From assembly GCA_963719515.1 (NCBI GenBank), contig CAVRCJ010000003.1, positions 640,001 to 704,000 on the forward strand: DNA of 64,000 nucleotides, read 5' to 3'. Source of the DNA: an uncultured cyanobacterium. Its GTDB lineage: Bacteria; Cyanobacteriota; Cyanobacteriia; CAKZMO01. A program made the translations under genes and the position numbers. A model generated the notes under the pieces. The model did no database searches. It was not told the origin of the DNA and saw only the letters and a program-made list of their open reading frames with translations. Below are positions 6,824 through 49,700 of the stretch, piece by piece (the first letter of the stretch is position 1; each line of letters begins with the position of its first letter).

Positions 6824-7006
6824 CTACCCGTCAGGGTGAGCGTCGGGATGAGAGTCGCGGTCGTCGATGGGGCTCAATGCCCCGGAGACGGCCAAACTTC
6901 GGATGTACTCCCTAAGGACATCGTTGATAGTTCTTTCGGTCATCTCATAATACTTGTCAAGATGCTGCTTTTCTCTATCAGCGGCTCTAATAGTTATTTG
7001 TTGCAT
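6824..7006 (-). CDS. small ribbon-helix-helix (CopG-like) protein, divergent from tnpB
   Basis: MQQITIRAADREKQHLDKYYEMTERTINDVLREYIRSL has a beta-helix-helix pattern. Confidence 0.65.
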   Translation of the reverse strand: MQQITIRAADREKQHLDKYYEMTERTINDVLREYIRSLAVSGALSPIDDRDSHPDAHPDG

Positions 7007-7039
7007 GTCGTTCTGATGTCAATATGCTATCATTATTGC

Positions 7040-8236
7040 ATGAAAGTCACTTATCAGTACAAGTTGCGTCCAGCGGCTGAGCAAACGGTTACCATGACCC
7101 AATGGCTAGATATGCTTCGGGCACAGTACAACTGGTTGCTGGCTGAGCGCTTCGACTGGTGGGAGATGAACCGCTGTTCGGTCAACGCCTGCCCACTCAC
7201 CTGTAGCCTTGCGCCACTCAAAGATAATCCTAATTACTACAGCCAGAAGGCTAGCCTAGTACCTCTCAAGCGAGAGCGGCCCTGGTACAAAGATTTGCAC
7301 TCACAAGCGCTTCAGGAGGTGACGAAGCAGGTAAAGCAGACGTTCGAGCGTTTCATCAAAGGTGATAAAAACGGTAAGCGTAGCGGCAAGCCTCGGTTCA
7401 AAGGCGCGGGGCGCTACAGGACGTTCACGTTCCCGCAGATGAAACCTGACTGCATCGATGGAAGTCGTATTACCCTGCCTAAGATTGGCCAGGTGAAGCT
7501 AATCCTTCATCGCCCGATACCTGATGGGTTTACTGTCAAAACGGCCAAGGTGACTCGCAAAGCAGATGGTTGGTATGCGAGCCTGTTACTGGAAAACAAT
7601 GCCGTTCCGATGCTTACTCCGGATGTTGATAGGGCTAAGTCTGTCGGTGTTGACGTTGGGCTGAAGGATTTCTTGGTTACCAGTGACGGTGAGAGCGTTC
7701 CTATCCCTCAGTTCTTTCGACGCTCAGAGCGGCAGCTATCCAAGCTGCAGCGGCAGCTATCGAGACAGAAGAAGGGCTCTAACCGCTGGCGTAAGCAGGT
7801 GAATCGCATCGCCAAACTGCATCTGAAAATATCGCGTCAACGCCGTGATTTCTTTTCTAAGGTGTGGGATTGGCTGTTTTCAAAGTACGATGTTGTCGCT
7901 CATGAAAAGCTCAACATCAAAGGACTTGCTCGAACCAGACTGGCAAAGTCAATCGCTGATGCCGCATGGGGTACATTCTTGGAGATAGGCTCTTTCAAAG
8001 CCGCGAAAGCTGGAAAGATGACCATCGCTGAGAACCCACGCGGAACCAGCATTGATTGCTCGGGTTGTGGTGAGCGGGTACCAAAGACGCTGGCCGATCG
8101 GGTCCATAGTTGCCCGTCATGCGGCTTAACGATCTGTCGCGACCACAACGCGGCTATCAACCTATTGAATAGGGCTGTGGGACATCAAGCCCTTAATCTC
8201 TCAGGAAATGTCTCAGCGGTAGCTGGGAGTCACTGA
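7040..8236 (+). CDS. tnpB: RNA-guided endonuclease TnpB (start moved to ATG 7040)
   Basis: MKVTYQYKLRP N-terminus; RuvC GVDVG / HEKLN / RDHNAA; CSGCG..CPSCG zinc finger. Confidence 0.95.
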   Translation: MKVTYQYKLRPAAEQTVTMTQWLDMLRAQYNWLLAERFDWWEMNRCSVNACPLTCSLAPLKDNPNYYSQKASLVPLKRERPWYKDLHSQALQEVTKQVKQTFERFIKGDKNGKRSGKPRFKGAGRYRTFTFPQMKPDCIDGSRITLPKIGQVKLILHRPIPDGFTVKTAKVTRKADGWYASLLLENNAVPMLTPDVDRAKSVGVDVGLKDFLVTSDGESVPIPQFFRRSERQLSKLQRQLSRQKKGSNRWRKQVNRIAKLHLKISRQRRDFFSKVWDWLFSKYDVVAHEKLNIKGLARTRLAKSIADAAWGTFLEIGSFKAAKAGKMTIAENPRGTSIDCSGCGERVPKTLADRVHSCPSCGLTICRDHNAAINLLNRAVGHQALNLSGNVSAVAGSH

Positions 8237-13406: not shown

Positions 13407-13482
13407 CCTAAGAGACCGACATTAAGCTAACCTAAACGACGTCAGAAATCACCTGCCACACCCGCAAAATTTCCGCCACGCT
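13407..13482 (-). repeat. diverged direct-repeat copy of the 3' end of the amylo-alpha-1,6-glucosidase gene (partner 21859-21934)
   Basis: Ungapped 76-bp alignment, 59/76 identical by hand; reads SVAEILRVWQVISDVV* versus SVAEILRVWRAISEGI*. Confidence 0.85.
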
Positions 13483-13800
13483 GGCCCTCACCCCCGGCCC
13501 CTCTCTCAACGCTGATACCGCTGGCGAATTTCATGTCTTGTTACATCTCGGCTATTTCCTGCCCCGGAGAAGGCCCCCTAAATCCCCCAATTCTGGGGGA
13601 CTTCAGAGAGGTTAGAACTCCTTAAAGTCAATAGCCGCGAATAGTATGGCCACTGCTCCGGTTCCCCCAGAATTGGGGGTTAGGGGGCCTCGAAGGCGTA
13701 CAGCTCGATTACGAAATATTTCGCCAGTGGTATCAACGCTGGGAGAGGGGAGTCTGATTCCCTCCCCTCGGAATTGAGGGAAGGGCTAGGGATGAGAGCC
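13483..13800. repeat. REP-like palindromic element interrupted by a MITE-like insert
   Basis: GGCCCTCACCCCCGGCCCCTCTCTC...GGGAGAGGGG...CTCCCCTC...GGGAAGGGCTAGGGATGAGAGCC arms. Confidence 0.7.
13514..13734. mobile_element. 221-bp MITE-like insertion with 15-bp TIRs and 6-bp target duplication
   Basis: GATACCGCTGGCGAA / TTCGCCAGTGGTATC (14/15 inverted match); AACGCT at 13508-13513 and 13735-13740; inner palindrome AGGCCCCCTAAATCCCCCAATTCTGGGGGA..TCCCCCAGAATTGGGGGTTAGGGGGCCT. Confidence 0.75.
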
Positions 13801-13941
13801 TCCCATGGCGCTAAACGGTTACCAGGGGAAACGCCTAGACGAGGTTTATTCGTCAGGGGTCTATAATTTGAGCAGATAAGGATGGCTCGCTAGAGTAATG
13901 AAGAAAGGGCTGGCCTCAGAAGAAGGTAAAACTTAAGGCCT

Positions 13942-14337
13942 ATGGAACCGCTCCCTATGATTCAAATTACCTTCGGACTCAGCAACGCCGACGAGGGCGA
14001 TCGCCTCCGGTTTTCCAAGCAGGTGCTGCCAGAGCTGCGGGACTTGGACGAAGTGCAGCGGGCCGACCGCACCGAGGTGATGGCGGCGGAAGACGGCGTC
14101 AAGGGCTTTGAAACCCTGCTGGGCTTTTTGACGGCGGAGGTGACGCGGGAGAGCCTAACGGAATTCCTCAAATGGATGGGCGATCGCTTTGCGGATAAGA
14201 CCCTGAAGGTGGCGGTTAAAGTAGGGGAGAAGGAAATCGAGCTAGAGGCGACGAGCCGCAAAGAGCTGGATGACCTGGAGCAGCGGGCCACCCGGCTGCT
14301 GGCGGCAATGGATACCGGCAGTTCCGAAGCCTCGTAG
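13942..14337 (+). CDS. small protein, EACC1-like effector-associated constant component
   Basis: 131 aa, ELRDLDEV..GVKG + hydrophobic helix + VKVGEKEIEL; directly upstream of a caspase gene; family call from recalled pattern, not a search. Confidence 0.55.
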   Translation: MEPLPMIQITFGLSNADEGDRLRFSKQVLPELRDLDEVQRADRTEVMAAEDGVKGFETLLGFLTAEVTRESLTEFLKWMGDRFADKTLKVAVKVGEKEIELEATSRKELDDLEQRATRLLAAMDTGSSEAS

Positions 14338-14383
14338 GGTGGGTCCTGACCCACCACCAACCCGTTAGATACCCACCAAATCT

Positions 14384-16498
14384 GTGCCCAGAAAATTAGC
14401 CCTATTGATCGGCGTCAGCGACTATGGCGAGGGATTTGATCCCTTAAGTGCTCCCGTCAAAGACGTTGCCGCCCTGCAGCGGGTGCTGGCAAATCCCGAG
14501 ATGGGTCACTTTGACGAAGTCAAAACCCTGACTAACCCTGGCTTGGTAGAAATGCGGCGGGAAATTGGCACCCTGTTTTCCACCTCCCAAAAAGACGACC
14601 TGGTGCTGCTGTTCTTCTCCGGCCACGGCGTCACCGATGACGACTATCGGCTGTACCTGACCACAAAGGCATCCGCCAAAGATACGTTTAAGTTCGACTC
14701 CTTAGAGGCCAGCTACATCCAAAACTTTTCCGACAGCGCTTGCGCCAAGCGGCAAGTGATTATTTTGGACTGCTGCTACAGCGGCGCGTTTGCCGGGGGG
14801 TGGCAGCCCAAGGGGGCGGAGGTAAAGCTGGAGCTAGAGCGGGAGCTGGGCAAGGAGGGGCGGGTAGTGTTGACGTCGTCCTCTTCGACGCAGGTGTCGT
14901 TTCAGCAGGAGGATGGGGAGCTATCGCTGTATACCCAGTATTTGGTGGAGGGAATTGAGACGGGGGCGGCGGATAAGGACAAGGATGGGGCGATTCGGGT
15001 GCGGGAGCTGCACGAGTACGCGAAGCGGAAGGTGCAGGAGGTGAAGCCGAAGCTGAAGCCGGACATTATTGTGGCGGATGATGAGGGCTATGATATTGTG
15101 CTGAGCCGGGTGAAGCTGGATGCAGCGCTGCGATTTCGGCGGGAGGTGGAGAAGCGGGTTGACCATGAGCGTGGGGAGATTTTAGATATTGACCAGGAGA
15201 CGCTGCAGGTGAAGGCGCAGCGTCTAAATTTGCCCGCTGAGAAGGTCAAGGAAATTATCGACAGCGTACTGGAACCATCGCGGCGCAGGTTGCGGAATTT
15301 GGAGCGGTATCGGCAGAAGTACGAAGAGTATGCCGAGCGGGGCTATCCGTTGAGCGAGCGGGTAATGGAGAGCCTGCGGGACTGGCAGCAGGAGGTGCTG
15401 GGGCTAGAGGACAACGATGTTGCAGGGATTCAGCGGCAAGCTCACCAGCGATATGCGCGAAGTGAACAGGTTAAGGAAGAAGTTGATAATTCCAATTTCC
15501 TCACTTCTCTGACAGCAGATGAGGCAGCGGGAAGACGGCCCACGGCTCCGCCTCAAGTTGATACGGCTTACAAATTTGAGCAGATACTACCTGAACCAAA
15601 TACAACCGACAAACAAGGCAGGCTTGAACAACCGCTGACCACTTTCAGCTTTCAGACCGCTAGAATCACAGGCTGTCAGAAGCAGGGAGGGTTCCTTGGC
15701 GTAGGCGGTGAAGTTGTCTGCGATATTAGACGCGAAACGAAGACAGCACAGGGATTTGTTGAGGGCTTGGGCAACGGCGCGACGCTGGAACTAGTGCAGA
15801 TTCCGGCTGGGCGATTTGTAATGGGCTCGCCAGCAAAAGAGGCCACCTACGGTGATGAGAAGCCTCAGCACGCGGTTAGAGTGCCGCCATTTCTCATAGG
15901 CAAGTTCGTGGTGACTCAGGCTCAATGTGAGGCTGTGATGGGTACTAATCCAGCAGTCCAATACAATGCTGACCATTTTGTAGCGCCTGATAAACCCGTT
16001 GTGGGCGTGAGCTGGAATGACGCGATCGCTTTTTGCGAAAAGCTGTCTCAGCAGACTGGTCGAATGTATCGATTGCCGAGTGAGGCGCAATGGGAGTATG
16101 CCTGCCGGGCTGGAACCGAGACGCCGTTCTACTTTGGAGAGACGCTGACAGTGGCGATCGCAAACTATGACGCTAGCCAAACTTACGGCAGCGGACCAAA
16201 AGGTGAATATCTAAAAAAGACAAAGGCGGTAGGATCTTTCCCTACCAACGCCTTTGGCCTGTTTGATATGCATGGCAATGTCTGGGAATGGTGCCAAGAC
16301 CACTGGCATGGAAACTATAGGGGCGCACCCGCTGATGGAAGCGCCTGGATCGCAGGTGGAGACAGCGATAAACGTGTTCTACGCGGCGGTTCCTGGTTCA
16401 ATCTTCCGATCTTTTGCCGTTCGGCGAATCGGAACAGGAACGCCCCCGGCTACCTCGGCTACGGGATGGGTTTCCGGGTGTGTGTGGCGTCGGCGTGA
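14384..16498 (+). CDS. caspase-family (peptidase C14) protease fused to a C-terminal FGE-sulfatase/CLec domain; DGR target protein
   Basis: ALLIGVSDY, FSGHG and LDCCYSG dyad; YRLPSEAQWEYACRAG, NAFGLFDMHGNVWEWC, RVLRGGSW..GFRV. Confidence 0.92.
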   Translation: MPRKLALLIGVSDYGEGFDPLSAPVKDVAALQRVLANPEMGHFDEVKTLTNPGLVEMRREIGTLFSTSQKDDLVLLFFSGHGVTDDDYRLYLTTKASAKDTFKFDSLEASYIQNFSDSACAKRQVIILDCCYSGAFAGGWQPKGAEVKLELERELGKEGRVVLTSSSSTQVSFQQEDGELSLYTQYLVEGIETGAADKDKDGAIRVRELHEYAKRKVQEVKPKLKPDIIVADDEGYDIVLSRVKLDAALRFRREVEKRVDHERGEILDIDQETLQVKAQRLNLPAEKVKEIIDSVLEPSRRRLRNLERYRQKYEEYAERGYPLSERVMESLRDWQQEVLGLEDNDVAGIQRQAHQRYARSEQVKEEVDNSNFLTSLTADEAAGRRPTAPPQVDTAYKFEQILPEPNTTDKQGRLEQPLTTFSFQTARITGCQKQGGFLGVGGEVVCDIRRETKTAQGFVEGLGNGATLELVQIPAGRFVMGSPAKEATYGDEKPQHAVRVPPFLIGKFVVTQAQCEAVMGTNPAVQYNADHFVAPDKPVVGVSWNDAIAFCEKLSQQTGRMYRLPSEAQWEYACRAGTETPFYFGETLTVAIANYDASQTYGSGPKGEYLKKTKAVGSFPTNAFGLFDMHGNVWEWCQDHWHGNYRGAPADGSAWIAGGDSDKRVLRGGSWFNLPIFCRSANRNRNAPGYLGYGMGFRVCVASA

Positions 16499-16499
16499 G
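16381..16499 (+). repeat. DGR variable repeat (VR)
   Basis: 119-nt ungapped match to 16664-16782 with 17 mismatches, 12 at TR adenines; forms the last 39 codons of the CDS. Confidence 0.92.
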
Positions 16500-16663
16500 G
16501 ACCTTGCCCTTTGCGCCTTTTCCCTCTTGCCCTCTGTTCCGCACTTAGCGCGGCGAAAAATTTTTCCTTTGGTACTACCTGACCGCGTTTGTAACGAACG
16601 AAGCAACATTAGCCCCCTGCCACCGATGGGCATGGTATATCCCTATGTGGGGCAGGCATTAAA

Positions 16664-16782
16664 ACGCGGCGGTTCCTGGTACAACCATCCGATCAATTGC
16701 CGTTCGGCGAATCGGAACAGGAACACCCCCGGCAACATCAACAACAATGTGGGGTTCCGGGTGTGTGCGGCGTCGGCGTGAG
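16664..16782 (+). ncRNA. DGR template repeat (TR)
   Basis: AAC/AAT-rich copy of the VR (TACAACCAT, ATCAAT, GGCAACATCAACAACAAT) outside any credible CDS. Confidence 0.9.
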
Positions 16783-16930
16783 CACTCCCAACGGCCAGAA
16801 TCGGTAGAAGGGATTCTATCGAGCGTGTGACTGGGAGTCCAGACCTGCTCCGGCGAGGGCAGAAATGCTTTCCGAAAATAAAACAGGGCCAGGTCATTGG
16901 TAGGGAAACCGAAGATTATCTGGCCCCCCA
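16783..16930 (+). ncRNA. putative structured 3' spacer of the DGR RNA
   Basis: Non-coding and hairpin-rich (ACTCCCA..TGGGAGT, TCGGTAGAA..TTCTATCGA, GGGCCAGG..TCTGGCCC); lies where the TR-RT spacer normally is. Confidence 0.5.
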
Positions 16931-17093
16931 GCTAGACAGACCCTAGATCCCTGGAATCTGGTAAGGCTTCGCAAAGCGTCATCCTTGGCCGCTCAGGTAT
17001 CACCGTTGCCCCGTGAGATGTTACCACCGACAGTTGAAGTCTCGCCGCCGACAGATAAACTCTTTCGGGCGAAACGACGGTTAGCGGCGTAGA

Positions 17094-17204
17094 GGCAATC
17101 GCTGCCTAGCCGACGACGAGCGCCTGGCACAGATGCAGCAAGAGAAGGAGGTGCTGTTGGCGAAACTCCGCTCCCTCGGCATCAACCCAGAAGAGCTGCA
17201 ATAG
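17094..17204 (+). pseudogene. orphan C-terminal fragment resembling the tail of cyanobacterial Uma2-family endonucleases
   Basis: GNRCLADDERLAQMQQEKEVLLAKLRSLGINPEELQ* with an in-frame stop just upstream. Confidence 0.55.
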
Positions 17205-17232
17205 CCTGCCCACCAGCGATCGCCCAAACCTT

Positions 17233-17583
17233 TTACCGGATAGGTCGCTGCTGCACCAGGTAGCTGAGCACCTGACCGTGGGCCGGGGTAATATGGATGC
17301 CGCGATCGCCAATGGTAATCATCGGAGTCCAGTAGTGGCGCTCCACGTAATCCAGCAGGTGCAGGCGGGCTATAGCGTCCTGCACGCCGACCGGGGAGCC
17401 AATCAAGAGGTGCCGTAAGTGCTCGCATCCTGGCGCGGGGGATGGTTCTACCAACGTGGGGATATGAGGATCGGCTTCCATAGGCGAATCTAGCCGTGCG
17501 GCGCGGTCTGCCGCGAGCTGTTGGCGTACGGCGAGCTGGGCAGCCTCTTGAACCAAGGGCAGCCGAGGATATTGGATTGTCAT
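17233..17583 (-). CDS. small hypothetical protein, HxxIGSP family copy 1 (start MTIQYP at 17583)
   Basis: LRHLLIGSP..AIARLHLLDYVERHYWT..GIHITPAHGQVLSYL shared with 46166-46450 and 57812-58243; GGAG SD. Confidence 0.75.
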   Translation of the reverse strand: MTIQYPRLPLVQEAAQLAVRQQLAADRAARLDSPMEADPHIPTLVEPSPAPGCEHLRHLLIGSPVGVQDAIARLHLLDYVERHYWTPMITIGDRGIHITPAHGQVLSYLVQQRPIR

Positions 17584-17772
17584 GAGGGACTCCATTTGTG
17601 TTGTTTTGGAGTCCCCCAAAGAATCTGGACATTCCAGACGTGATAAGGGCTCGGTATGACTCAGGTACAATCGCACAAGGTCATCCAAACAGCTTGCTCT
17701 GTTCTGGTGGCTCAGGGGCTGCATGTTGTTCGTAGCAACATGCGGCTCCGCCAGACCGACTCTTTGGGAGAC
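17584..17772 (-). ncRNA. structured leader RNA, copy 1
   Basis: 15-bp closing stem 17758-17772 / 17611-17625 with two G-U pairs; internal hairpins; alternative 9-bp SD-sequestering hairpin 17586-17615. Confidence 0.6.
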
Positions 17773-17887
17773 TAGAACCATGAGGACCACGGCTCATAGC
17801 TCACTAAGGTAGATCATTTATGCGCTGATGGCAAGGGGCACGTAGCGTTTTTAGCGAGGGGGCTGGCTGGCGAGGGCGGCGGGATAA

Positions 17888-18181
17888 GCGATCGCCATTC
17901 TCCAACGAGTGCTAATTACTCTCGAACAAGCGATCGCCACTCTCCAGTGAGTCATTGCCACTCTCGCACGGATGATCATCACTCTCCCACGAGCGATCGC
18001 TAGTCTCCAACGAGTGGGCATTACTCTCGCAGGAGCGATCGCCACTCTCTGCCAAGCGATTGCCACGTTCCGACGAGTCATTATGGCTCTCGCACGAGTA
18101 ATCGCCACACTTCCACGAGCAATGGCCACGCTCTGACGAGTGATCAGGACTCTCACACGAGCGATCGCCAGTCTCCTACAG
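17888..18181. repeat. tandem array of 14 degenerate 21-bp units
   Basis: Exact 21-bp period with no indels; consensus about GCGATCGCCACTCTCCNACGA. Confidence 0.9.
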
Positions 18182-18190
18182 GTAACAGCT

Positions 18191-19879
18191 TCAATCTCCC
18201 CAAACTTGAATATGGTAGCGGTACCCCTGCTCCGTCAAGAATAGCTGCCGGTGCTGAGCAAACTCCTCCTCGCAGGTGCGCGAAGACACCAGCGTATAAA
18301 ACTGAGCGCTGCGCCCGTCCCCCTTAGGCCTTAGCACCCGCCCCAGCCGCTGCGCCTCCTCCTGGCGGGAGCCATACTTCCCTGACACCTGAATCAGCAC
18401 GTCCGCATCGGGCAAATCTAAAGCAAAGTTACCCACCCGCGAGAGAATCAGCCCCGTCTCTTCGCCGCTGCGAAAGGCGGCGTAGAGGCGATCGCGCTCT
18501 TTTTGGCTGGTCTTGCCGGTGATCATGGAGAAGTCGACCCGCTCAGCGATCGCCTTCAATTGATCCAGGTACTCCCCAATAATCAGCACCCGTCGCCCTG
18601 CTTCCCGCTCTAGCAGCGCCGCCACCACGTCCACCTTGAGGGGATTTTCGGCGGCGATGCGAAACTGGTAGCGGCGGGAGGCCGTGGCGTAGTCCATCTG
18701 CCGCGCCTCGGTTTGCGGCACCCGGATTTCGGTGCATTCCGCCGCCGCAATAAAGCCTTGGCCCTCCAGCTCTCGCCAGGGTACGTCGTAGCGCTTGGGG
18801 CCAATGAGGGTGAACACATCGCCCTCGCGGCCGTCCTCGCGAATCAGAGTGGCCGTTAGTCCTAAGCGGCGGCGGGCCTGCAGTTGAGCGGTGATGCGGA
18901 ATACGGGGGCGGGCAGCAGATGCACCTCGTCGTAGATGATTAGGCCCCAGCTTTGCTCATCGAACAGCCCCAGGTGCAAGAAATCCTCATCTTGACTGGC
19001 CCGGTAGGTGAGGATTTGGTAGGTGGCAAGGGTAACGGGGCCGGTGGCCTTTTGCTGGCCGCTGTACTCCGCTAGATGGTCTGCCGTGAGGCTGGTCTTG
19101 TCCAACAGCTCCCGCTGCCACTGGCGCACCGAGGTGAGGCTGCTGGTGAGGATCAGGGTCTTTTGCTGCACCGCCGCCATCGCCGCCATGCCTACCATGG
19201 TCTTACCCGCCCCGCAGGGCAGCACAATCACGCCGCTGCCGCCTTTGGCCTGCCCCGACTGGTAAAACAGGTCGGCGGCAGTTTGCTGGTAGGGCCGCAG
19301 GTGAAAGGGCTCGCCCGCGCTGGTAGTAGTAGCCAGCTTCAGCGGTAGGGCATCGCCCTCTAGGTAGCCCGCCAAATCTTCTGCCGGGTAGCCCGCCGTG
19401 AGCAGCGCCTGCTTGAGCAGGCCCCGGTGTCCCAAGGCGACGGCAAAGGTTGTCGGCGAAAGGCGACCAGCCAGCAGCGGCCCCACCTGCTCGTGGCGCA
19501 GTAGCAGTTCGGCCAGGGGCTTGTCGGCCACCTGCAGCAGGAGTTCATCTCCCGAGCCAGCGCCATCACTTGCCTTCAGCGTCGTTAGCCCGTAGCGCTG
19601 CCCCAATGCTTCAAGCTCCTGAGCCACTGATTCGGGCATGGGGTACTTGGCGTGGGTGCTCAGGGCGGTAACCATATCGGCGACGGGCATGCCAGCGGCG
19701 CGGGCGTTCCAAATGCTCAGGGGGCTAAGGCGGTAGGTGTGGATGTGCTCTGGGCTTTTGACCAGCTCGGCAAAGGGAGCGATCGCGGCTTGGGCAGGCT
19801 TGGCCTTGGGGGCGTGGACATCCAGCAGCACGGTGCGATCGCTTTGGATAATTAGGGCGTTGTCGGGGGAGTAGCTCAT
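18191..19879 (-). CDS. XPB/Rad25-like SF2 DNA helicase
   Basis: ELVKSPEHIHTY N-domain, LRPYQ, LPCGAGKT, DEVH, GLTATLIRED, QRLGRVLR. Confidence 0.93.
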   Translation of the reverse strand: MSYSPDNALIIQSDRTVLLDVHAPKAKPAQAAIAPFAELVKSPEHIHTYRLSPLSIWNARAAGMPVADMVTALSTHAKYPMPESVAQELEALGQRYGLTTLKASDGAGSGDELLLQVADKPLAELLLRHEQVGPLLAGRLSPTTFAVALGHRGLLKQALLTAGYPAEDLAGYLEGDALPLKLATTTSAGEPFHLRPYQQTAADLFYQSGQAKGGSGVIVLPCGAGKTMVGMAAMAAVQQKTLILTSSLTSVRQWQRELLDKTSLTADHLAEYSGQQKATGPVTLATYQILTYRASQDEDFLHLGLFDEQSWGLIIYDEVHLLPAPVFRITAQLQARRRLGLTATLIREDGREGDVFTLIGPKRYDVPWRELEGQGFIAAAECTEIRVPQTEARQMDYATASRRYQFRIAAENPLKVDVVAALLEREAGRRVLIIGEYLDQLKAIAERVDFSMITGKTSQKERDRLYAAFRSGEETGLILSRVGNFALDLPDADVLIQVSGKYGSRQEEAQRLGRVLRPKGDGRSAQFYTLVSSRTCEEEFAQHRQLFLTEQGYRYHIQVWGD

Positions 19880-19905
19880 AGGTTTTGTTTTTAGGCGTTG
19901 GGGCC

Positions 19906-21777
19906 TTAGCTACTCGCCATCGGTAGGCTGTACCCCAGCTTCCGCAGGCCGTTACGAAAGCGGGTTTCTTGGTCTAAGGGCACCACCAAATGGCGATCGC
20001 CCGCCAGCTGGCAATACTTTTTGGTGCGGGAATCGTGGGCAATTAGCGCGGCTAGGCTGGCGTCGGCGCATTCAATCAGGCGGGCTACCCCCTGGGCCTG
20101 CAGGCTCTCCGTGCGGCTGCGGCAGTCTTCGAAGAACTGCGCCACGGTTTTGGGCAAAGCTTCGGCGCTGGCCTGGGTGAGAAAGTCGTAGAACTCTTGG
20201 AGGGAGTGACCCGCTTCAGCGGCCTTAAGGATGGTTTCTCGGTCCAGCTTCCAGACGGCGTCAGAGGTCTGCTGGGTGAAGGTGTTCATCATTAGGGTTT
20301 CGGCGGGGGGGAGAGGGGCTCCCGCCATGACGATGTCGAGGTTGGGCAACACCCGCAGCGTGCTCTCGGTGGTGATAGGGGCCGGGGTATAGGCATCGGT
20401 GAGGCCGAGGCAAAAGTCTCCTAGGGGCGTGAGCCGCACCGCAACCAGGCCATCGTAGCGGCTGAGAAACGAGAGATCGTCGGTGCCCCAGAAGCTGTCA
20501 TAGCTGCCGCGGGGGGCCGCGTAGGGGGTGATGTAGCCCACGTCCAGCAGCCCTAAGGTAGCTGCGTATTCAAACAAAAAGCAGCGCATGTAGCTGTCCT
20601 GGAGAATGCCCCAAGACGCGCCATATTCATTGAGATAGCCGTAGCCCGCTTCGCTGATATAGAGACTTTCGGGGTAGCGGCTGACCTCAAACAGTTGATT
20701 GCTGGCAATCATGTAGCGCTTTAGGTGGTCAAACGTGACCCACTCCCCTGCAGGGCACAGCTGCAGGGCGTCAGTAATCGCAGCGCGCCGTCCGCTGACG
20801 GCAGTGAGGCTGCGCTTGGCTTTGCCGGTTTGCCCTTTAATGGCGTCGATGCGCCGCAGTTCGTCGAGCAGGGTGGTTTTCAGCCACTTTTTCCAAATGG
20901 CCTTGAGGGTTTTGTGGGGAGGCGCGCCCATGGCCTTTTGCCCTGCCTTGGTCAGCTGCAGCTTTTTGCCGTCTAAGCTGGCCAATCCACCCGCCTGCAC
21001 CAGCATCACCCAGGCAAAGGGCTTGATGACGCCGATGGGATCGTGGTAATCGTCGGCGGGTTCGTCGTCCTCGGTGTAGTAGTCGCCGCCCTGCAGCAAA
21101 GGGGCGATCGCCTTCAGGGTGGCCTTGCTGGGCATGTAGGTTTTGTCACTGACGCTCACCTTGCCCAGGTGAATCAGCCGCAGCACCGCGAGCAAGTTCT
21201 GCTGGGCGGCTTGTTCCCTAAGGGCGATGGCGATGGGCACCGCTGCTACCGTCTTGATGGACTTACGCTGCTCGTAGTCAAAGTGACGGTGCTGTACCTC
21301 AAACACCTCCGGCAGCGTTTCACTGCTGTTCAGGGTGAGCAGCGGGGGCTGCGGCACAAATGCCTTGAGCTTTTGCTGCAGCGCTTCTGGCATCAGGGAG
21401 GCAGAGTCATACCGGCTACCGGGATAGAAAAACAGATCGAGCTTGGCGGCGGGCTGGCTGTAGCGCATAAACGAGCCACGATTCTCCCAGGTCGGTAAGT
21501 CGCCGTATTTGGCCCGAAACTGCTCCGCCTCGAAGCGGCCCTCGGTGTAGTAGATCGCTTCTGCAACGGCCGCCTGCTGCAGTTTGTCTAGATCGTTCCA
21601 CAGCGCCTTTACCCCCGGCCCCAGGAGATACCCTTCTATGGCATAGATGAGGTCGGCTTTTCGAGTCGACTTTCCTTGAATGGGTAAAAGATCAAGCAGC
21701 TTTTTAATATCTTCGACGGTGCGAAAAGATAATCCTGCCTGGATCGTGCTCAGCGATGTCAGCGTGGAGTCTGCCAT
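19906..21777 (-). CDS. helicase-associated protein with C-terminal XPB/Ssl2 N-terminal-like domain
   Basis: C-terminal LRVLPNLDIV..VWKLDRETILKAAEAG..LPKTVAQF; operonic with the XPB gene. Confidence 0.7.
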   Translation of the reverse strand: MADSTLTSLSTIQAGLSFRTVEDIKKLLDLLPIQGKSTRKADLIYAIEGYLLGPGVKALWNDLDKLQQAAVAEAIYYTEGRFEAEQFRAKYGDLPTWENRGSFMRYSQPAAKLDLFFYPGSRYDSASLMPEALQQKLKAFVPQPPLLTLNSSETLPEVFEVQHRHFDYEQRKSIKTVAAVPIAIALREQAAQQNLLAVLRLIHLGKVSVSDKTYMPSKATLKAIAPLLQGGDYYTEDDEPADDYHDPIGVIKPFAWVMLVQAGGLASLDGKKLQLTKAGQKAMGAPPHKTLKAIWKKWLKTTLLDELRRIDAIKGQTGKAKRSLTAVSGRRAAITDALQLCPAGEWVTFDHLKRYMIASNQLFEVSRYPESLYISEAGYGYLNEYGASWGILQDSYMRCFLFEYAATLGLLDVGYITPYAAPRGSYDSFWGTDDLSFLSRYDGLVAVRLTPLGDFCLGLTDAYTPAPITTESTLRVLPNLDIVMAGAPLPPAETLMMNTFTQQTSDAVWKLDRETILKAAEAGHSLQEFYDFLTQASAEALPKTVAQFFEDCRSRTESLQAQGVARLIECADASLAALIAHDSRTKKYCQLAGDRHLVVPLDQETRFRNGLRKLGYSLPMASS

Positions 21778-21858
21778 AGGGGTTTGGGCGTAGACTGCTT
21801 CAATTAAAAATACGCACTCTCAACGCTGGGAGTCGAGGGTTTTGGCTATCACAGTTAT

Positions 21859-21934
21859 CTTAAAAGACCGACGTTAGATTGGCCTAGATGCCCTCAGAAA
21901 TTGCCCGCCAAACCCGCAGAATTTCCGCCACGCT
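21859..21934 (-). repeat. right-hand copy of the 76-bp island-flanking direct repeat
   Basis: Aligns ungapped with 13407-13482 and has the stop codon at the same position. Confidence 0.85.
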
Positions 21935-25075: not shown

Positions 25076-26596
25076 CTAGGCGCGCGGCTTATCGCCAGGA
25101 CTGACGCTGAAGTTAGCAAAATCGATGTGCGTGTCCTTCGGCGTTGACCAAGAGCGATCGCCGCCGCCAAAAAAGGTAGAGAAGAAGATGCCGTCCAGCT
25201 GCAGGTCGTCTGTTGTCCGAAACATCAGCCCGCTGTCCTGCAGCACCAGGTTGCCGTCGAGCCAGACCCGAACTTGCCCGTCGGACTGGCCCGGTTGGTT
25301 GAGTACTACCTCTTGCTCTACGGTGTGCCACTGACTCGGCGTAAAGGTCCAGGCTCCCCGCCCGATGGAGTCGCCATAGCCTTTGCTCGTAGGTAAGTAA
25401 GCGTAGACTTCGCCCTGTCCCTCCCGTCGCCACATGAGCCGCGTCGAAAAGCCGTCAGTGCCGTCGGGGATATTGCCGCCGCTGGCCCCCGCTCCGCCAA
25501 ATAGACCGGGAAGCTTGCCGCCTTTGACGAAGTCAAAATTGTCGGCAAAGCGCAGGTCATAGCTGAGGCGCAGGCTGTCTTGAGGCGGGACGTCTAAGCC
25601 GGCGTAGAACTGTCCGCCCCCCAGAGGAACGCCTTCCTTACGGCTGACGGAGGGAGCTGCAGAGCCCTTGGGATAGTGGACCCGGAGGACGCCTGGCTCT
25701 CCCCCTGTAGACAGCACCTCAAAGTTCTCTTCTCCCCAAGCGCCTTTTTGCCGGACGTTCCACTGCGCCTGCCAATCGCCTGAGAAATCGTCGCTCCAGG
25801 CCGCGGCTGGGCTGGGCCGGACGCCGGGGCCAGGGTCGGGGGTAGCGGCCGCTGGCAAGATTCTTTCTACCACCGGGGCCTCGCTAAAGGTCGGGCCATC
25901 CGCTTCGACGCCGTTCGCTGTCGCGTTTCCATCAGGGCGACTAAACTCTGGGCTATCTACCGGCGACTCGAGCGGAGAGCCAGCGCGAGTGGAGACAAAC
26001 ATGCTCTCCTCTAGCGCTGCAGACTGGACGTTCTGCAGGCGCGCCAGCTTGCTACCAGACGTGCCATCGATGATAATGGTGTCCTTGCGGGACTGAGAGA
26101 ATTCGAGCTGATCAAACGTCAGGCCATCGGCCAGCCCTAGGCGGTCGGTGCCGACCTGAAAGTCAATGATTCTGTCGGTGCCACTTTGGCGCTCTAGCAC
26201 GAACACATCTTGCCCCTGATGCTTAGAGACATCGCCAATCAGCCGGTCGTCGCCCTGTCCGCCCCACAGCAGGTCGCTACCCGCGTCCCCGCGAATTCTG
26301 TCGTCGCCCTCTCCGCCAAAAAGCAGGTCGTTGCCCTCCCTGCCGCGAATTCTGTCTTTCCCGTCGTCGCCAAAGATGATGTCGTTCAGACTGTCAGCGA
26401 GTCGGCCTGTACCCGCATCGCCCTCAAGGCGATCGCCCTTTGCGGTGCCGTAGATAGGGGCATTGAAGGCGTCAGGGGCCAGCAGGCCGCGATTCTCACC
26501 AGCGCTAGAGGAGCGAAGGCCAGGATCTTCGGATGCGATCGCAGAAAAGTTAGCCAATGCGCCGTCCGGCATTGACTCAAAAGATTGAGGTCTCAC
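25076..26596 (-). CDS. RTX Ca-binding repeat protein fused to a PL14-like polysaccharide lyase
   Basis: GGxGxD nonapeptides; FDFVKGGKLPGL, GFSTRLMWRR, FFSTFFGG. Confidence 0.8.
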   Translation of the reverse strand: MRPQSFESMPDGALANFSAIASEDPGLRSSSAGENRGLLAPDAFNAPIYGTAKGDRLEGDAGTGRLADSLNDIIFGDDGKDRIRGREGNDLLFGGEGDDRIRGDAGSDLLWGGQGDDRLIGDVSKHQGQDVFVLERQSGTDRIIDFQVGTDRLGLADGLTFDQLEFSQSRKDTIIIDGTSGSKLARLQNVQSAALEESMFVSTRAGSPLESPVDSPEFSRPDGNATANGVEADGPTFSEAPVVERILPAAATPDPGPGVRPSPAAAWSDDFSGDWQAQWNVRQKGAWGEENFEVLSTGGEPGVLRVHYPKGSAAPSVSRKEGVPLGGGQFYAGLDVPPQDSLRLSYDLRFADNFDFVKGGKLPGLFGGAGASGGNIPDGTDGFSTRLMWRREGQGEVYAYLPTSKGYGDSIGRGAWTFTPSQWHTVEQEVVLNQPGQSDGQVRVWLDGNLVLQDSGLMFRTTDDLQLDGIFFSTFFGGGDRSWSTPKDTHIDFANFSVSPGDKPRA

Positions 26597-31313: not shown

Positions 31314-32243
31314 ATGAAGCACCGACTTTTAGGTCAATCGAGACTGTGGCGATTGGGGCTTGTCGTCGTAATCTTCAATCTGGGATGTCGCTCAGTCCAA
31401 CAGAGTTCCTCTCAGCTAGCGGAGAGCGATCCGGCAGCCGCGGCCCAGATTCAGGAAACCCAACCACAACAGTCGTCTCTTGAAGTGCAGACTGATGTTG
31501 ATGCTGAAGCGATCGCCCGTTGGTTAGCCCAACCCGATGGTGCTGGCCCAGCTCGCTCCTTTCGCGTCCGCTCGGGGAAGTCTTGGGGCTTTGAAAACCT
31601 GTCCTTCATTTCAGACGTCAGTACCGCCGAAGTTCCCGCTTTTCTACGGGTTTATTACCCCGCAGGCTCGGCGAGCCCTTCCGTGTCTCGGGAGAGCAGC
31701 GTGGCCTTGGGCGGAGCGCAGTTCTATGCCGAAATAGAGGCCCCTCAGAAGGCTTTGCGCCTTAGCTATCGGGTCCGCTTCTCGGATGACTTCAACTTTG
31801 TCAAAGGGGGGAAGCTGCCGGGGCTATTTGGCGGGGTGGGAGCCAGCGGCGGCAACATCCCCGACGGCAGCGACGGCTTTTCTACAAGGCTGATGTGGCG
31901 GCGGGAGGGGCAGGGAGAGGTTTATGCCTACCTGCCGACGAGTGAGCGCTATGGGACGTCCATTGGCCGAGGTCGCTGGCAATTTCGCCCTGGGGCTTGG
32001 ACTCAGGTAGAGCAGGAGGTTGTCCTCAACCAGCAGGGAGCAGCAGACGGACATATTCGGCTGTGGGTCGACGGCACCCTGGTGATCGACGAACCGGGGC
32101 TGACCTTCCGCACCACCGACGCGCTCCAGCTCGATGGGCTATTTTTCTCTACTTTTTTTGGCGGCGGTGACCCTTCTTGGGCTACGCCCGAGGATGCTTA
32201 TGTGGACTTTGCAGACTTTACCATTGACGGGGGCGGCCCCTAG
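31314..32243 (+). CDS. PL14-like polysaccharide lyase, probable lipoprotein
   Basis: Signal ending NLGC; FNFVKGGKLPGL, GFSTRLMWRR, FFSTFFGG; close paralog of the 25076 lyase domain. Confidence 0.8.
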   Translation: MKHRLLGQSRLWRLGLVVVIFNLGCRSVQQSSSQLAESDPAAAAQIQETQPQQSSLEVQTDVDAEAIARWLAQPDGAGPARSFRVRSGKSWGFENLSFISDVSTAEVPAFLRVYYPAGSASPSVSRESSVALGGAQFYAEIEAPQKALRLSYRVRFSDDFNFVKGGKLPGLFGGVGASGGNIPDGSDGFSTRLMWRREGQGEVYAYLPTSERYGTSIGRGRWQFRPGAWTQVEQEVVLNQQGAADGHIRLWVDGTLVIDEPGLTFRTTDALQLDGLFFSTFFGGGDPSWATPEDAYVDFADFTIDGGGP

Positions 32244-37072: not shown

Positions 37073-37218
37073 ACCGATAGATTTCAATATAGTAGTCGTT
37101 AATTTAGAAGGAGAGGAGTTCCCAAACCCCTTAGGGGTCTGGCACCTTCTAGTATGTGAAGCCAATGTTTTCTGCAGCACCCCACTTGAGACCGGTGAGC
37201 AAGGCCAGGCCACCCAAT

Positions 37219-37277
37219 GTCGCTATTCAATGTCGCTATCCAGAGTCGCTATTCAATGTCGCTATCCAGAGTCGCTA
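37219..37277. repeat. 13-bp-period tandem repeat (GTCGCTA x5)
   Basis: GTCGCTATTCAAT and GTCGCTATCCAGA alternate. Confidence 0.85.
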
Positions 37278-42906: not shown

Positions 42907-43469
42907 GACGTTGGGGGGTTGGAGTTCAGCTCTTGCCAGCGCACCTTATTGATCCGGTATAGCACATGCCGCTGCAGCCTATGGCCCTCCGGCAGCGCCG
43001 GGTGGTCGAAGTCGTCCTCCGGCTGGTAAGTCATGCCGAGGCGCTCCATCACGGCTCTTGAGCGCTGATTCTCTACTGCCGTAATCGACACAATTTTCTC
43101 TAGTGCCAGTGTCTCAAAGCCGTAATTCAGCGCGCCCCTAGCCCCTTCGGTGGCGTATCCCTGGCCCCAAAACTGCCGCGCCAGCCGCCAGCCTGCCTCC
43201 ACCGCCGGGGTAAAGTGGGCCTCAAAGTCCGCCACCTCTATGCCAATAAAGCCGATAAATGCCCCGGTCTCCCGCAGCTCCGCCGCCCAAAAGCCAAACC
43301 CGTGCTGGTCAATACTCTGCTCTATTCGCGCCACGGCAGCGTCAGACTCTTGGCGGATGAGCAGGCCCGGAAAGTAGCGCCGCACCTCGGGGTCGGCGTT
43401 GAGGCGAGCAAAGGGCTCTAGGTCGGAAGGCTGCCAGCGGCGCAGCAGCAGGCGCGGGGTCGTAATCAT
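42903..43469 (-). CDS. RimJ/RimL-type GNAT acetyltransferase
   Basis: TPRLLLR, VEAGWRL, WGQGYATE, NQRSRAVMERLGM. Confidence 0.92.
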   Translation of the reverse strand: MITTPRLLLRRWQPSDLEPFARLNADPEVRRYFPGLLIRQESDAAVARIEQSIDQHGFGFWAAELRETGAFIGFIGIEVADFEAHFTPAVEAGWRLARQFWGQGYATEGARGALNYGFETLALEKIVSITAVENQRSRAVMERLGMTYQPEDDFDHPALPEGHRLQRHVLYRINKVRWQELNSNPPTS

Positions 43470-46728: not shown

Positions 46729-49700
46729 TCAAATCGCTTCTGCTTTTCGCAGTGCCGCTAGCTCTTCTGGCGTGAAGGGGTTTTGGCCAGACTGGAGGGC
46801 GGCTACCCATCGCTCCCGTCGCGATCGCTGCTCATCCGAGAAAATCTGACTATTGTTATCTGCGCTTAGTGCCGACTGAAAATCTGCTAGTGCCCCGTCA
46901 AGGTCATTTGTTAAGAGCTTTGGCCAGCCCTCGGGTATCGAACCATGCGCTCTCATTCCGGATCTAAACTTAACGGCTTTTTCTCCAGCGTAGAGAACAT
47001 CGGCGGCGTGGCCGTAGAGGCAGCCGTTCCAGCACAGTCTATTCCACGAGTGGGCCGAGATGTCGATATTGGGGTCAGTAGCTTGTGCCTGGTGGTAAGA
47101 GGCGATCGCCTCTGGAATTTGGCCGTCTTTGGCAAGAGCTAGCCCTTGGCTCAGAGCCAGAGCGGCGGCAAAGGCTGCCTCTTGAGCAAGCACTGGAGGA
47201 ACGTTCTCAGCAGCATGTATGCCCTCAGCGTTTGCCCAACTCGTCTCAGAATTCCACTTAATATTCTTAAAGTTGGCTCTGATGAAGTTGGCTCTGATGA
47301 GGTTGGCGCTGCTGAGGTCGGCACTGCGGAGGTTGGCGCTGCGGAGGTTGGCGCTGCTGAGGTTGGCGCTGCTGAGGTTGGCGCTGCTGAGGTCGGCGCT
47401 GAAGAGGTTGGCGCTGCTGAGGTTGGCGCTGCTGAGGTTGGCGCTGCTGAGGTTGGCGCTGCTGAGGTTGGCGCTGCTGAGGTTGGCGCTGCTGAGGGTG
47501 GCGCTGCGGAGGTCGGCGCTGCTGAGGGTGGCGCTGAAGAGGTTGGCTCTGAAGAGGTCGGCGCTGCTGAGGTCGGCGCTGCGGAGGTTGGCGCTGCGGA
47601 GGTTGGCGCTGCGGAGGTTGGCGCTGAAGAGGTCGGCGCTGCGGAGGTTGGCACTGCTGAGGTTGGCGCTGAAGAGGTTGGCGCTGCTGAGGTTGGCACT
47701 GCTGAGGTTGGCGCTGCTGAGGGTGGCGCTGCGGAGGTTGGCGCTGAAGAGGGTGGCGCTGCGGAGGTTGGCGCTACGGAGGTTGGCGCTGATGAGATGC
47801 TTTCCAACGACACTACTGAAGCCCAAAACGCGGAGACACTCGCTGTAGCCGATGATCCTGTAAAGCCGCGTCTCCTCAAACGCCTCCGTTTCCGGCTCAC
47901 CGCAGGGGTGAAACATCAATTTGCGATTTCAGCTCCTCTCGCTTCTGCCCATAGCGATGCAGTTCAAACAACAAAATCATCACGTTCAGCCCCGTCACCA
48001 CGTCCACCTGCCGCAGCCCCAAAGTCTCCTCTCGCTCCGGCACCCGCTCCTGCAGATTCGCCATTTTCCGCTGGGGCAGATTGTTCGAGGTAGCGTCGAT
48101 GAACTCCCCCTCCCACCAGCGCAGATAAAACTCCTGCAGCCGCTTAAACAGCGTCACCGGCTCTAGTTCATCGGACTGATCCAGCAGCACGCTCAAATAG
48201 TCCATCACCTCCACCGTCAGCCCGCCGTAGCCCAGGAGGTCATATACCTCCCAGCACATATCTCCATCAGAAACAAGGTATTTATTCCTTCGCCCTTGCC
48301 CCGGCTGAGACCAATCCTCCATCGCATCCCGCAGCCGCTCGGCAAACAAAAACTCGCCAAAACTCTTGTGGGCAAATTCCACCGAGCCTTCCTTATCACC
48401 AGCGGCAGGCTTAAGGTAAAACGTCGTCAGCAAATTGTTGAGCTGCTTTTGCTCAGAATAATCCTCCTCCCGCCTCGCCTCCTGCAGCGCGGCGTACATT
48501 GGGCTACTGCTGTCTTGCTGCAGCCGCGCCTCCAAAAACGACACCTTGGCCGTCTCATTGCCCGACTGCATCACACAGACAGCAGCTTCCGTCAGGGCTT
48601 GGCGCAACGCCTCCGGCTCCAGACCGACCAGTCGAAAGTTCTCGTCCTGACGCTGCTTTTCAATCACCCAGCGCACGGCCTCATCGTAAATCACTACTTT
48701 GGCTTCATTGCCCTGGGTGCCCTCAAACATATCGGCTCGCAGCCGCGTCTCCCGGTGCATCCGCCCCAGCAGATACAGCAGCAGCGGCTCCCGCGCCAGG
48801 GCGTCGTCGGCATCGTGGATCTCTCTGGGGCACAGGGCCAAAAACTGCTGTAGTTGCTCCGTTTCTGGGTCACCAAACTTCCTGGCCCAGTTGCCATACC
48901 ACCGCTCCCGCAGCTCGTCCCCCATGGGCTGCAGCTCCAGCCGCTCCAAATTGTCGGCCTGAGAAATAAGCCGCCCTACATTTTGCAGCGATAGCGGACG
49001 TCCCGTAATCAAAAAGCGGTGGAGGCTACCCTCTTGGAACTGCACCACCTGCCGTAAGAACTCCTGCAGTCCGCCCGTTTTCCGCCCCTCCAGCAGCAGC
49101 TCATCAAAGCCGTCCAGCAAAAACAAAAAGCGGGTGCTACTATCCGTCAGCCAGCCCCCATCAGTGCTGACAAAATCCTGAGTCTCCAGATAATTAGATA
49201 GGGTTTGGGTCAAGCTGCTCTCCAGCGTTTTCAGGTGGCGCAGCCGCACCAAAATTGGTATATATGCCGGGTAAAGCTCAGTTCGCACCCAGTTGGCATA
49301 CATGCGGCAAAAAACGCTCTTCCCCCGCCCCGCTTCCCCGTCAATAAACAAAATCCGCTTCGCATCGCTGTGCATCAGGTGCCCGGTGACCCAAGCCTCC
49401 AGATCTTCCAGCGGCTTATCTTTCAGCGGATTCCCATCGCGGTCCAGCCGCTTTACCTGCAGCGGCACGTAAATATCGTAAAAGCTCAAAGCCTCCTCGT
49501 CAAACACCTTATCCTGTGGCCCATCTTCAATCTGCCGCAAATAATCCTCAATGCTCAGATACTTCGCCTGCTCCTGCCGCCAGTTCTCAAACGTCGGCTG
49601 CCCCAAATGCTTCACCGCCTCCGCAGACGCCGCCCACACCTCGTTCAGGTAGCGCGGAGCGCGCCACTTCACCCGCTCCGTCAGCCGGTGAGCCTCCTCC

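What the first reader, a model, noticed from the sequence alone, without database searches (positions are those of the whole stretch)
13942..16498. EACC1-like + caspase::hypervariable CLec receptor-protease module
Seen: a two-gene unit in which the large protein has an intact caspase His-Cys dyad (SGHG, DCCYSG), a helical linker and a C-terminal FGE/CLec domain carrying the VR. Established: caspase genes paired with small EACC1 components occur in conflict systems of multicellular bacteria, and DGR-diversified CLec sensors have been proposed for these taxa. Inference: a hypermutable ligand sensor wired directly to a protease, i.e. a candidate adaptive-like immunity or cell-death switch, carried on an island.
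Basis: partly seen in the sequence, partly recalled or inferred. Interest (0 to 1): 0.82.

Follow-up and report, generated by a model that had tools for sequence, protein, structure and literature searches.

The report
Frozen DGR-sensor EACC1-caspase death switch
A cyanobacterial self-destruct gene pair of a known kind (a protease that should cut open a pore-forming partner) carries a ligand-binding tip once rewritten by a mutagenic retroelement, but this genome has no reverse transcriptase to rewrite it now, and its template RNA belongs with others that seem to borrow that enzyme from elsewhere.

Summary
13942-14337 is a remote EACC1-family protein. 14384-16498 is an EACC1-type caspase (NF047832, 157 bits, cut-off 140) fused to an FGE/CLec domain. 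Its VR matches a TR 283 bp downstream: 12 of 24 TR adenines differ, against 5 of 81 other positions. This is a known system: EACC1 becomes a pore-former after caspase cleavage, and DGR fusions are mentioned in print (PMC12642450).

'Hypermutable now' is not supported. No RT or Avd was found in the 100%-complete, 21-contig genome. The 5 non-A differences exceed the 0-2 seen in 29 RT-linked pairs.

The template RNA keeps 50 of 50 conserved spacer positions and groups with other RT-less target+TR cassettes (13 rows, none with an RT seen in cis). Ten such cassettes lie in genomes with a distant RT. In 9 of them the VR tracks its own TR (0-1 non-A differences), not the RT-linked TRs (13-23). This suggests non-autonomous DGR cassettes served in trans, with this copy stranded without a helper. 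That reading is inferred; no activity was shown.

The parts
13409..13482 (.). Decayed copy (78%) of the 3' end of the glycogen-debranching gene; left boundary of the variable slot
   Evidence: Direct repeat D13 with 21861-21934; translation shows the same C-terminal residues
13484..13820 (.). MITE-like multicopy repeat upstream of the module
   Evidence: About 17 other blastn matches on 8 contigs, 71-97% identical
13942..14337 (+). EACC1-family effector (cyanobacterial clade); predicted latent pore-former; flexible loop aa 47-55 with conserved G-x-K (K54)
   Evidence: No direct Pfam hit. 10 of 24 and 17 of 55 aligned homologs hit PF19953, best E 1.4e-5. Atlas EACC1 clusters at 0.92. AF2 model pLDDT 74, loop under 50. 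G 53/54, K 52/54
14384..15115 (+). EACC1-type caspase domain, aa 1-244; His81/Cys131; invariant D27 and D129
   Evidence: NF047832 157.2 bits, cut-off 140; alignment A3
15116..15508 (+). Helical linker (aa ~245-375), followed by a low-complexity spacer to aa ~450
   Evidence: Helices in a low-confidence model; conserved at 35-56% in homologs; a near-identical relative diverges here (L084)
15788..16480 (+). FGE-type C-type-lectin-fold domain (aa 469-699), putative ligand sensor
   Evidence: PF03781; PDB relatives PvdO and the DGR target TvpA 2y3c, E 7.8e-22
16381..16498 (+). DGR variable region (aa 667-704)
   Evidence: TR/VR comparison; 15 codons variable from this TR, about 1e14 protein variants in principle
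16503..16575 (+). Post-VR pyrimidine tract, GC hairpin (about 16539-16553, imperfect) and A/T run typical of these targets
   Evidence: Same layout after the VR in comparators; best perfect stem 3 bp
16650..16785 (+). Template repeat (16664-16785) with its conserved 5' leader
   Evidence: AAC-rich non-coding copy of the VR; alignment A2
16783..16927 (+). DGR RNA 3' spacer (RT-14-like)
   Evidence: Rfam RT-14, 38.7 bits, E 0.0075, under the gathering score of 48.1; keeps 50 of 50 columns conserved in at least 90% of 42 other spacers
17216..17840 (-). Multicopy ~620-bp element with a 116-aa ORF of no known family, downstream of the spacer where some relatives have Avd/RT
   Evidence: About 16 other copies in the genome; no Pfam hit
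21861..21934 (.). Intact 3' end of the debranching gene; right boundary of the slot
   Evidence: this gene abuts the GH63 gene directly in congeners G003 and G004

Best explanation
This is an EACC1-caspase abortive-defence module whose sensor is a DGR-diversified CLec domain, now frozen.

Protein steps: (1) a ligand, probably a phage product, binds the CLec tip [inferred]; (2) binding relieves inhibition of, or dimerises, the N-terminal caspase through the helical linker [inferred]; (3) the caspase cuts the small protein in its exposed loop, most likely after K54 [inferred]; (4) the ~8.6-kDa C-terminal piece oligomerises and permeabilises the membrane, killing the cell [shown only for Ktedonobacter EACC1, PMC12642450].

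DNA steps: the VR was written by adenine-directed retrohoming from the adjacent TR [shown by sequence]. The cassette carries target, TR and spacer RNA but no RT or Avd [shown]. It belongs to a group of such cassettes that probably rely on a DGR RT elsewhere in the host [inferred]. This assembly has no such RT, so the sensor is fixed at one allele and TR and VR are drifting apart.
For: Family calls. Pairing in 36 of 40 fetched loci; there the same caspase carries CLec (14), GUN4, TPR, periplasmic-binding, RDD or other C-terminal domains, the variable-sensor pattern of PMC7159879 System 4. Complete DGR versions: L188, L189, L190, L103 (non-A differences 0, 0, 1, 0).

No RT: 0 candidates for PF00078; tblastn with 12 RTs gave no RT-domain hit (best E for the 7 DGR RTs 0.29). 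No Avd (best E 0.05).

Drift: 5 of 81 non-A differences, against 0 (22 pairs), 1 (5) or 2 (2) for the best VR in 29 RT-in-cis loci. Three of the 5 are at third codon positions and do not change the residue, so the protein looks retained.

Cleavage site: the loop is disordered in the model and K54 is conserved. D27 and D129 are invariant. Non-metazoan C14 proteases prefer Arg/Lys (PMC5756287 passages). By eye, K54 falls where KrEACC1 has its proposed site D49. Predicted fragments are 6.1 and 8.6 kDa, against 5.7 and 7.1 kDa for KrEACC1.
Against: The small protein does not itself score on PF19953, and none of 55 homologs has a Kyte-Doolittle TM segment above 1.6. KrEACC1 is proposed to be cut at Asp, not Lys. 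No ligand, protease activity, toxicity or expression was shown. The assembly has 21 contigs, so an RT could be unassembled. Seven RT-in-cis loci hold a second VR with 10-19 non-A differences (dropped from the count of 29), so drift does not require RT loss. One RT-less cassette in a genome without an RT hit has 0 of 83 non-A differences (L139). Two of the five non-A differences adjoin mutated adenines and could be RT errors.
Confidence: 0.68

Rival explanations
1. The DGR is still active here, through an RT/Avd on an unassembled contig or plasmid, or one supplied transiently by a mobile element.
For: The spacer RNA keeps 50 of 50 conserved columns and 36 of 39 consensus pairs. The TR retains its AAC codons. 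Non-A differences occur in 23% of curated DGRs, up to 11 per target (PMC5758913 passage). DGR regions often break assemblies: several comparator contigs end at the TR.
Against: No RT or Avd in a 100%-complete, 21-contig assembly by four searches. 5 of 81 non-A differences lies outside the 0-2 range of the best VRs at RT-linked loci. No congener has a DGR-type RT (only 23-26% identity hits in G004) or this TR (0 of 4).
Confidence: 0.12
2. Ordinary local decay: a complete target-Avd-RT-TR (or target-TR-Avd-RT) cassette lost its RT here recently, as each of the other RT-less copies did independently. There is no trans-served lineage. The protein mechanism is as in the best explanation.
For: Degenerate DGR loci are described (PMC10907252; all3226 in PMC7517822). 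MITE-like and multicopy elements flank the cassette. The label 'no RT' needs 9-10 changes on the trees, so RT loss is recurrent. A sediment/mat relative leaves the window's sequence right at the spacer end (X2 record 16), and what follows there could not be read.
Against: The window's RNA sits in a 13-row group (95/91) with no member seen to have an RT in cis, across six family codes; the spacer-only tree gives 11 rows at 81/87, with 0 of 49 RT-linked rows. TRs in this group mostly differ from each other at 7-26 non-A sites (2-3 for the near-sister pair L098/L023), yet six VRs still match their own TR at 0-1 sites. Independent recent losses in every branch would be needed.
Confidence: 0.35
3. 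The module is a developmental or stress-signalling protease, not anti-phage defence; the small protein is a regulator or adaptor rather than a pore.
For: PMC7517822 argues for regulatory tuning by cyanobacterial CLec targets. PMC7159879 proposed EACC1 as a membrane sensor upstream of the caspase. Sister proteins carry GUN4, DnaJ-like and periplasmic-binding domains. The neighbours are housekeeping genes, with no defence cluster.
Against: The one tested EACC1 is a caspase-activated toxin (PMC12642450). The loop and topology fit that mechanism. Presence is patchy (106 of 301 genomes) and the sensor is swapped between near-identical strains (L084), as expected of conflict genes.
Confidence: 0.17

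Closest known systems
EACC1-caspase two-gene system (Kaur et al. 2020, PMC7159879 'System 4'; Evans et al. 2025, PMC12642450, KrEACC1-KrAvs12)
   Same: Small EACC1 gene 5' of a caspase with a variable C-terminal domain; NCBIfam NF047832 passed. [quoted passage not shown] 6A, text only seen).
   Different: Cyanobacterial clade that scores weakly or not at all on PF19953; the sensor is CLec, not a STAND NTPase; the predicted P1 is Lys rather than Asp; no classical TM helix.
Cyanobacterial DGRs with orthocaspase-CLec targets (Vallota-Eastman 2020, PMC7517822; Pfreundt 2014, PMC4143802; clade 5E of Dore 2024, PMC10907252)
   Same: FGE/CLec C-terminal VR, AAC-rich TR, spacer RNA and post-VR elements; caspase N-termini are reported among targets.
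   Different: No RT or Avd in cis or in the assembly. Unlike the remote targets of those papers, it has its own adjacent TR.
Degenerate/RT-less DGR loci (Nostoc PCC 7120 all3226 in PMC7517822; Thiohalocapsa DGR 4/5/7 in PMC10907252)
   Same: TR-VR homology with no proximal RT; repeats and MITEs nearby.
   Different: In Thiohalocapsa the trans-served targets match the RT locus's TR. Here comparator cassettes match only their own TR, and their RNAs cluster on a tree; the passages read treat such loci as single remnants.

Membership tests
EACC1-caspase system | 3' gene with an N-terminal EACC1-type caspase and intact His-Cys dyad | tested here: met
   NF047832 157.2 bits, cut-off 140; H81/C131 invariant
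EACC1-caspase system | 5' gene homologous to EACC1 (PF19953) | tested here: met
   Indirect only. The protein itself has no hit. 17 of 55 aligned homologs hit PF19953 at E up to 0.01, best 1.4e-5. Two 68-70% identical homologs carry it precomputed. Atlas EACC1 clusters at 0.92, 203 shared features
EACC1-caspase system | Conserved two-gene linkage with variable C-terminal domains | tested here: met
   36 of 40 fetched loci (misses L194, L202, L215 and L222 at a contig end); domain variety
EACC1-caspase system | Central TM helix with small residues (2020 definition) | tested here: inconclusive
   Best 19-residue hydropathy 0.73; 0 of 55 homologs above 1.6. The 2025 work describes a soluble monomer instead, and the model here is alpha/beta
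EACC1-caspase system | Cleavage by the cognate caspase and pore formation | not testable with these tools
   Needs bench work
Diversity-generating retroelement | TR/VR pair with adenine-biased differences at a target 3' end | tested here: met
   12 of 24 A vs 5 of 81 non-A, p 4.5e-6
Diversity-generating retroelement | Template RNA with a conserved 3' spacer | tested here: met
   Rfam RT-14 under its gathering score
Diversity-generating retroelement | Reverse transcriptase | tested here: not met
   None in the assembly; 100% complete, 21 contigs
Diversity-generating retroelement | Avd accessory gene | tested here: not met
   Nine cyanobacterial Avd queries, best E 0.05
Diversity-generating retroelement | Ongoing VR diversification | tested here: inconclusive
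   Only contigs of related, non-identical strains were available
Catalytic formylglycine-generating enzyme | Two active-site cysteines in the C-terminal core (motif recalled, not from a call) | tested here: not met
   The VR segment holds one Cys before RSA; equivalog models fall far below their cut-offs, e.g. PvdO 177 vs 500 bits

The most novel reading that the evidence does not exclude
Cyanobacteria harbour a lineage of non-autonomous DGR cassettes: target gene plus its own template/spacer RNA, with no RT or Avd. These borrow the RT of an unrelated resident DGR, so one enzyme serves several independent templates. Some of them (this one, L026, L139) diversify the sensor of an EACC1-caspase suicide switch. 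Such a module would be a portable receptor that mutates only in hosts holding a helper DGR and is locked when the helper is absent, as here.
Probability: 0.4. Interest if true: 0.7.

Novelty: new variant of a known kind. Interest (0 to 1): 0.46.

Why it matters
Whether DGR-diversified CLec domains in multicellular bacteria are immune sensors is an open question. This family makes it directly testable, because the output (caspase, then EACC1 cleavage, then death) now has a published assay. The same module occurs in three states: with a full DGR, with a TR only, and with no DGR parts. If RT-less cassettes are served in trans from their own templates, RT-anchored surveys undercount DGRs, and DGR RTs accept foreign template RNAs in nature. 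This particular copy is probably a frozen example and is less useful than the complete loci.

Tried and rejected
Single-sequence fold of the 704-aa protein: unusable (pLDDT 39). Fold search of the small protein: best Z 7.1, none at 8 or above, generic ferredoxin-like hits only. Caspase dimer + small protein complex: no verdict (0.30, 0.35, 0.23; mark 0.32); not used as evidence. Atlas search of the linker: no usable hit.

Direct PF19953 genome scans: nothing over the cut-off in G000 or five relatives. Sequencing runs: no RNA holder listed; best share 0.35. Laid contigs were related strains and could not show VR polymorphism. Viral contigs: 6 of 6 spacer-motif matches lacked TR, RT and CLec. 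Phages: CLec-only matches. Plasmids: one weak hit for the small protein.

The hairpin defect as a sign of decay is weak: 7 of 29 RT-linked targets also gave stems under 4 bp in my script. The promoter scan was at chance level. The two other CLec genes in the genome (C6 caspase-CLec, C10 TIR-CLec) are not targets of this TR (27/80 and 29/80 non-A differences). A catalytic FGE/PvdO role was rejected.

Literature searches for an RT-less, self-templated DGR class and for RT-14 returned no paper describing it in the listings and passages seen; subscription journals are not covered. Earlier-findings look-ups by place and by sequence were empty.

Full report
Observation. The window is G000:C3:640001-704000 of a 5.28-Mb, 21-contig assembly rated 100% complete. 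Its relatives and its density of GCGATCGC (1.47 per kb; the HIP1 label is recalled) mark it as a cyanobacterium. The two ORFs are as described. The large one has Peptidase_C14 at aa 3-219 and FGE-sulfatase at aa 469-699, and passes NCBIfam 'caspase, EACC1-associated type' (157.2 vs 140). His81 and Cys131 are invariant in 14 aligned domains. TvpA, a DGR target, is among its PDB relatives. The architecture is common: 119 of the best 120 homologs carry both Pfam domains, the window's own protein included.

Small protein. It has no Pfam hit of its own. Homologs do: 10 of 24 at E up to 1 and 17 of 55 at E up to 0.01 match EACC1 PF19953, best 1.4e-5. The Atlas lists EACC1 clusters at 0.92 and 0.91, behind a cyanobacterial cluster misnamed 'sugar ABC transporter permease'. 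The family was found in 106 of 301 genomes of the class. I fetched 40 of these loci: six hand-picked for nearness to TR, RT or CLec hits, the rest mostly by rank. 36 have a caspase directly downstream and 14 of those are caspase+CLec fusions. Others end in GUN4, TPR, periplasmic-binding, RDD, SPOR, pilin-like or unassigned regions. The model (pLDDT 74) is beta-alpha-beta, a disordered loop at 47-55, then beta-alpha-beta-beta-alpha. The loop's G-x-K is kept in 53 and 52 of 54 sequences. No member has a classical TM helix.

What is known. PMC7159879 (passages, section 33) defines the EACC1-caspase system. PMC12642450 (abstract, passages, section 4, one row of Table S1) shows that Ktedonobacter EACC1 is cut by its caspase into 5.7 and 7.1 kDa pieces, that the C-terminal piece is toxic and leaks liposomes, and says that EACC1 proteases are fused to domains including DGRs. 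Its figures and supplementary PDF could not be read and may show this very architecture. PMC7517822 (passages, section 6) reports orthocaspase-CLec DGR targets and one paralog, all3226, with remnant TR-VR homology and no proximal RT. PMC10907252, PMC8195603, PMC5758913, PMC4143802 and PMC5756287 were seen as passages only. The module is therefore a member of a known kind.

DGR parts. The VR (16381-16498) matches a TR at +283 bp. 12 of 24 adenines and 5 of 81 other positions differ over 105 nt. Downstream lies a spacer that aligns with those of other cyanobacterial DGRs, keeps 50 of 50 columns conserved in at least 90% of 42 others, and weakly matches Rfam RT-14. No RT was found by PF00078, by tblastn with 12 RTs (hits only to the C-terminal parts of non-DGR RT proteins) or by a DGR RT query. 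No Avd was found with nine queries. After the spacer come about 280 bp without a long ORF and a multicopy element. The best VR at 29 RT-in-cis loci has 0 (22), 1 (5) or 2 (2) non-A differences. I left out seven second VRs at such loci with 10-19 differences, and loci with partial RTs. The window's 5 differences, three of them at third codon positions without changing the residue, fit a protein still kept but no longer rewritten. PMC4143802 reads silent non-target changes in Trichodesmium VRs the same way.

Comparative result. Of 67 loci examined (the window included) have a VR 283-566 bp before a TR and no RT or Avd in the fetched flanks. For four of them, wider fetches of 16-18 kb were also clear. 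Loci cut by contig ends, without a matched VR, or with Avd nearby were set aside as unknown. Ten of the 14 lie in genomes with a full-length DGR RT elsewhere, in G167 1.4 Mb away. Nine of these ten VRs differ from their own TR at 0-1 non-A sites (L129 at 11), and from the RT-linked TRs that I could parse at 13-23 (not every TR of each genome was parsed). The four in genomes with no RT hit show 5 (window), 4, 2 and 0.

On a tree of TR+spacer (57 rows), the window falls in a 13-row group (95/91): 8 RT-less, 5 unknown (two of them identical), none of 34 RT-linked. With the spacer alone (72 rows) the group has 11 rows at 81/87 and none of 49 RT-linked; holding 12 together is not rejected (p-AU 0.44). 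RT-less rows also occur elsewhere (9-10 changes), the root is not known, and one search scored only two candidates per genome. The simplest reading is a lineage of self-templated cassettes kept in step by an RT in trans; repeated recent loss is the rival. The EACC1 module itself appears in three states: with Avd, RT and TR (L188, L189, L190, L103); with TR only (window, L026, L139, degenerate L085); and with no DGR parts.

Site. The debranching and GH63 genes that bound 13483-21860 are adjacent in congeners G003 and G004. G001 has a TPR-CHAT gene and the same multicopy element in the slot, and G002 lacks the debranching gene at that side. A decayed copy of the debranching gene's 3' end marks the left edge. 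GC is 58.3% vs 57.0%, no integrase or transposase was found among the ORFs scanned, and the slot also holds an XPB helicase pair that sits elsewhere in G002. So it is a variable insertion site, not a clear genomic island. A public contig (L084) is 97.4% identical over 13696-15180 and then diverges in the linker, which suggests sensor swapping.

Mechanism and verdict. Most likely the CLec tip binds an infection cue, the caspase is activated and cuts the EACC1 protein in its loop, probably after K54, and the C-terminal piece forms pores. The K54 call rests on conservation, on invariant D27 and D129, on the Arg/Lys preference of non-metazoan C14 proteases (PMC5756287), and on a by-eye match to KrEACC1's D49. 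Every functional step is inferred from homologs. Novelty of the wiring is low, and hypermutation is not supported for this genome. The non-autonomous cassette lineage is the part I did not find in print. Interest 0.46.

Noticed in passing
L001:7217-10063 (G000 C6); L247-L249: A second EACC1-like gene and caspase-CLec gene (707 aa) lie in divergent orientation, with no TR. The divergent layout recurs in congeners G001, G003 and G004.
   Followed up: partly
L002:7895-9241 (G000 C10): TIR-CLec protein, a third CLec gene in the genome; not a target of this TR.
   Followed up: partly
window 17216-17840: A ~620-bp element with a 116-aa ORF of no Pfam family, about 16 other copies in the genome and present in congeners; nature unknown.
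   Followed up: partly
window 13484-13820: MITE-like multicopy repeat with internal inverted motifs; a similar-looking motif sits between VR and TR in L139.
   Followed up: partly
window 17110-17205: Short frame ending ...LLAKLRSLGINPEELQ that resembles the C-terminal tail of Uma2-type proteins (recalled, not tested); probably a remnant.
   Followed up: no
window 17887-18176: Degenerate 21-nt tandem repeat, about 14 copies, overlapping a 101-aa ORF right after the XPB gene.
   Followed up: no
window 18191-21777: XPB helicase (NF045503 above cut-off) and its Helicase_C_3 partner sit inside the variable slot here, but in another context in G002.
   Followed up: partly
L016:6272-9112 (G001): The same slot in a congener holds a TPR-CHAT protease gene, another caspase-superfamily protein.
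   Followed up: partly
L084: A 1.5-kb contig in a MAG titled Nonlabens is 97% identical to this cyanobacterial locus, probably misbinned; its protein diverges after the caspase domain.
   Followed up: partly
L027:7638-7889 (G029): A TR+spacer with no target or RT within 8 kb, and no other match to it in that genome.
   Followed up: partly
H1-H9 (Microcystis phages): Microcystis phages encode CLec domains 56% identical to the sensor, 2-4 places per genome.
   Followed up: no
window 47272-47796: 15-nt tandem repeat, 35 copies, 88% matches, inside a 396-aa ORF.
   Followed up: no
window 6836-8236: IS605 OrfB/TnpB-type gene.
   Followed up: no
window 25076-26596 and 31314-32243: Two polysaccharide lyase 14 genes in inverted orientation flank a glycosyltransferase/HlyD cluster.
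   Followed up: no
window 42928-43463 and 50360-50895: Paralogous repeats about 75% identical, 7.4 kb apart; also a 13-nt repeat at 37214-37277.
   Followed up: no
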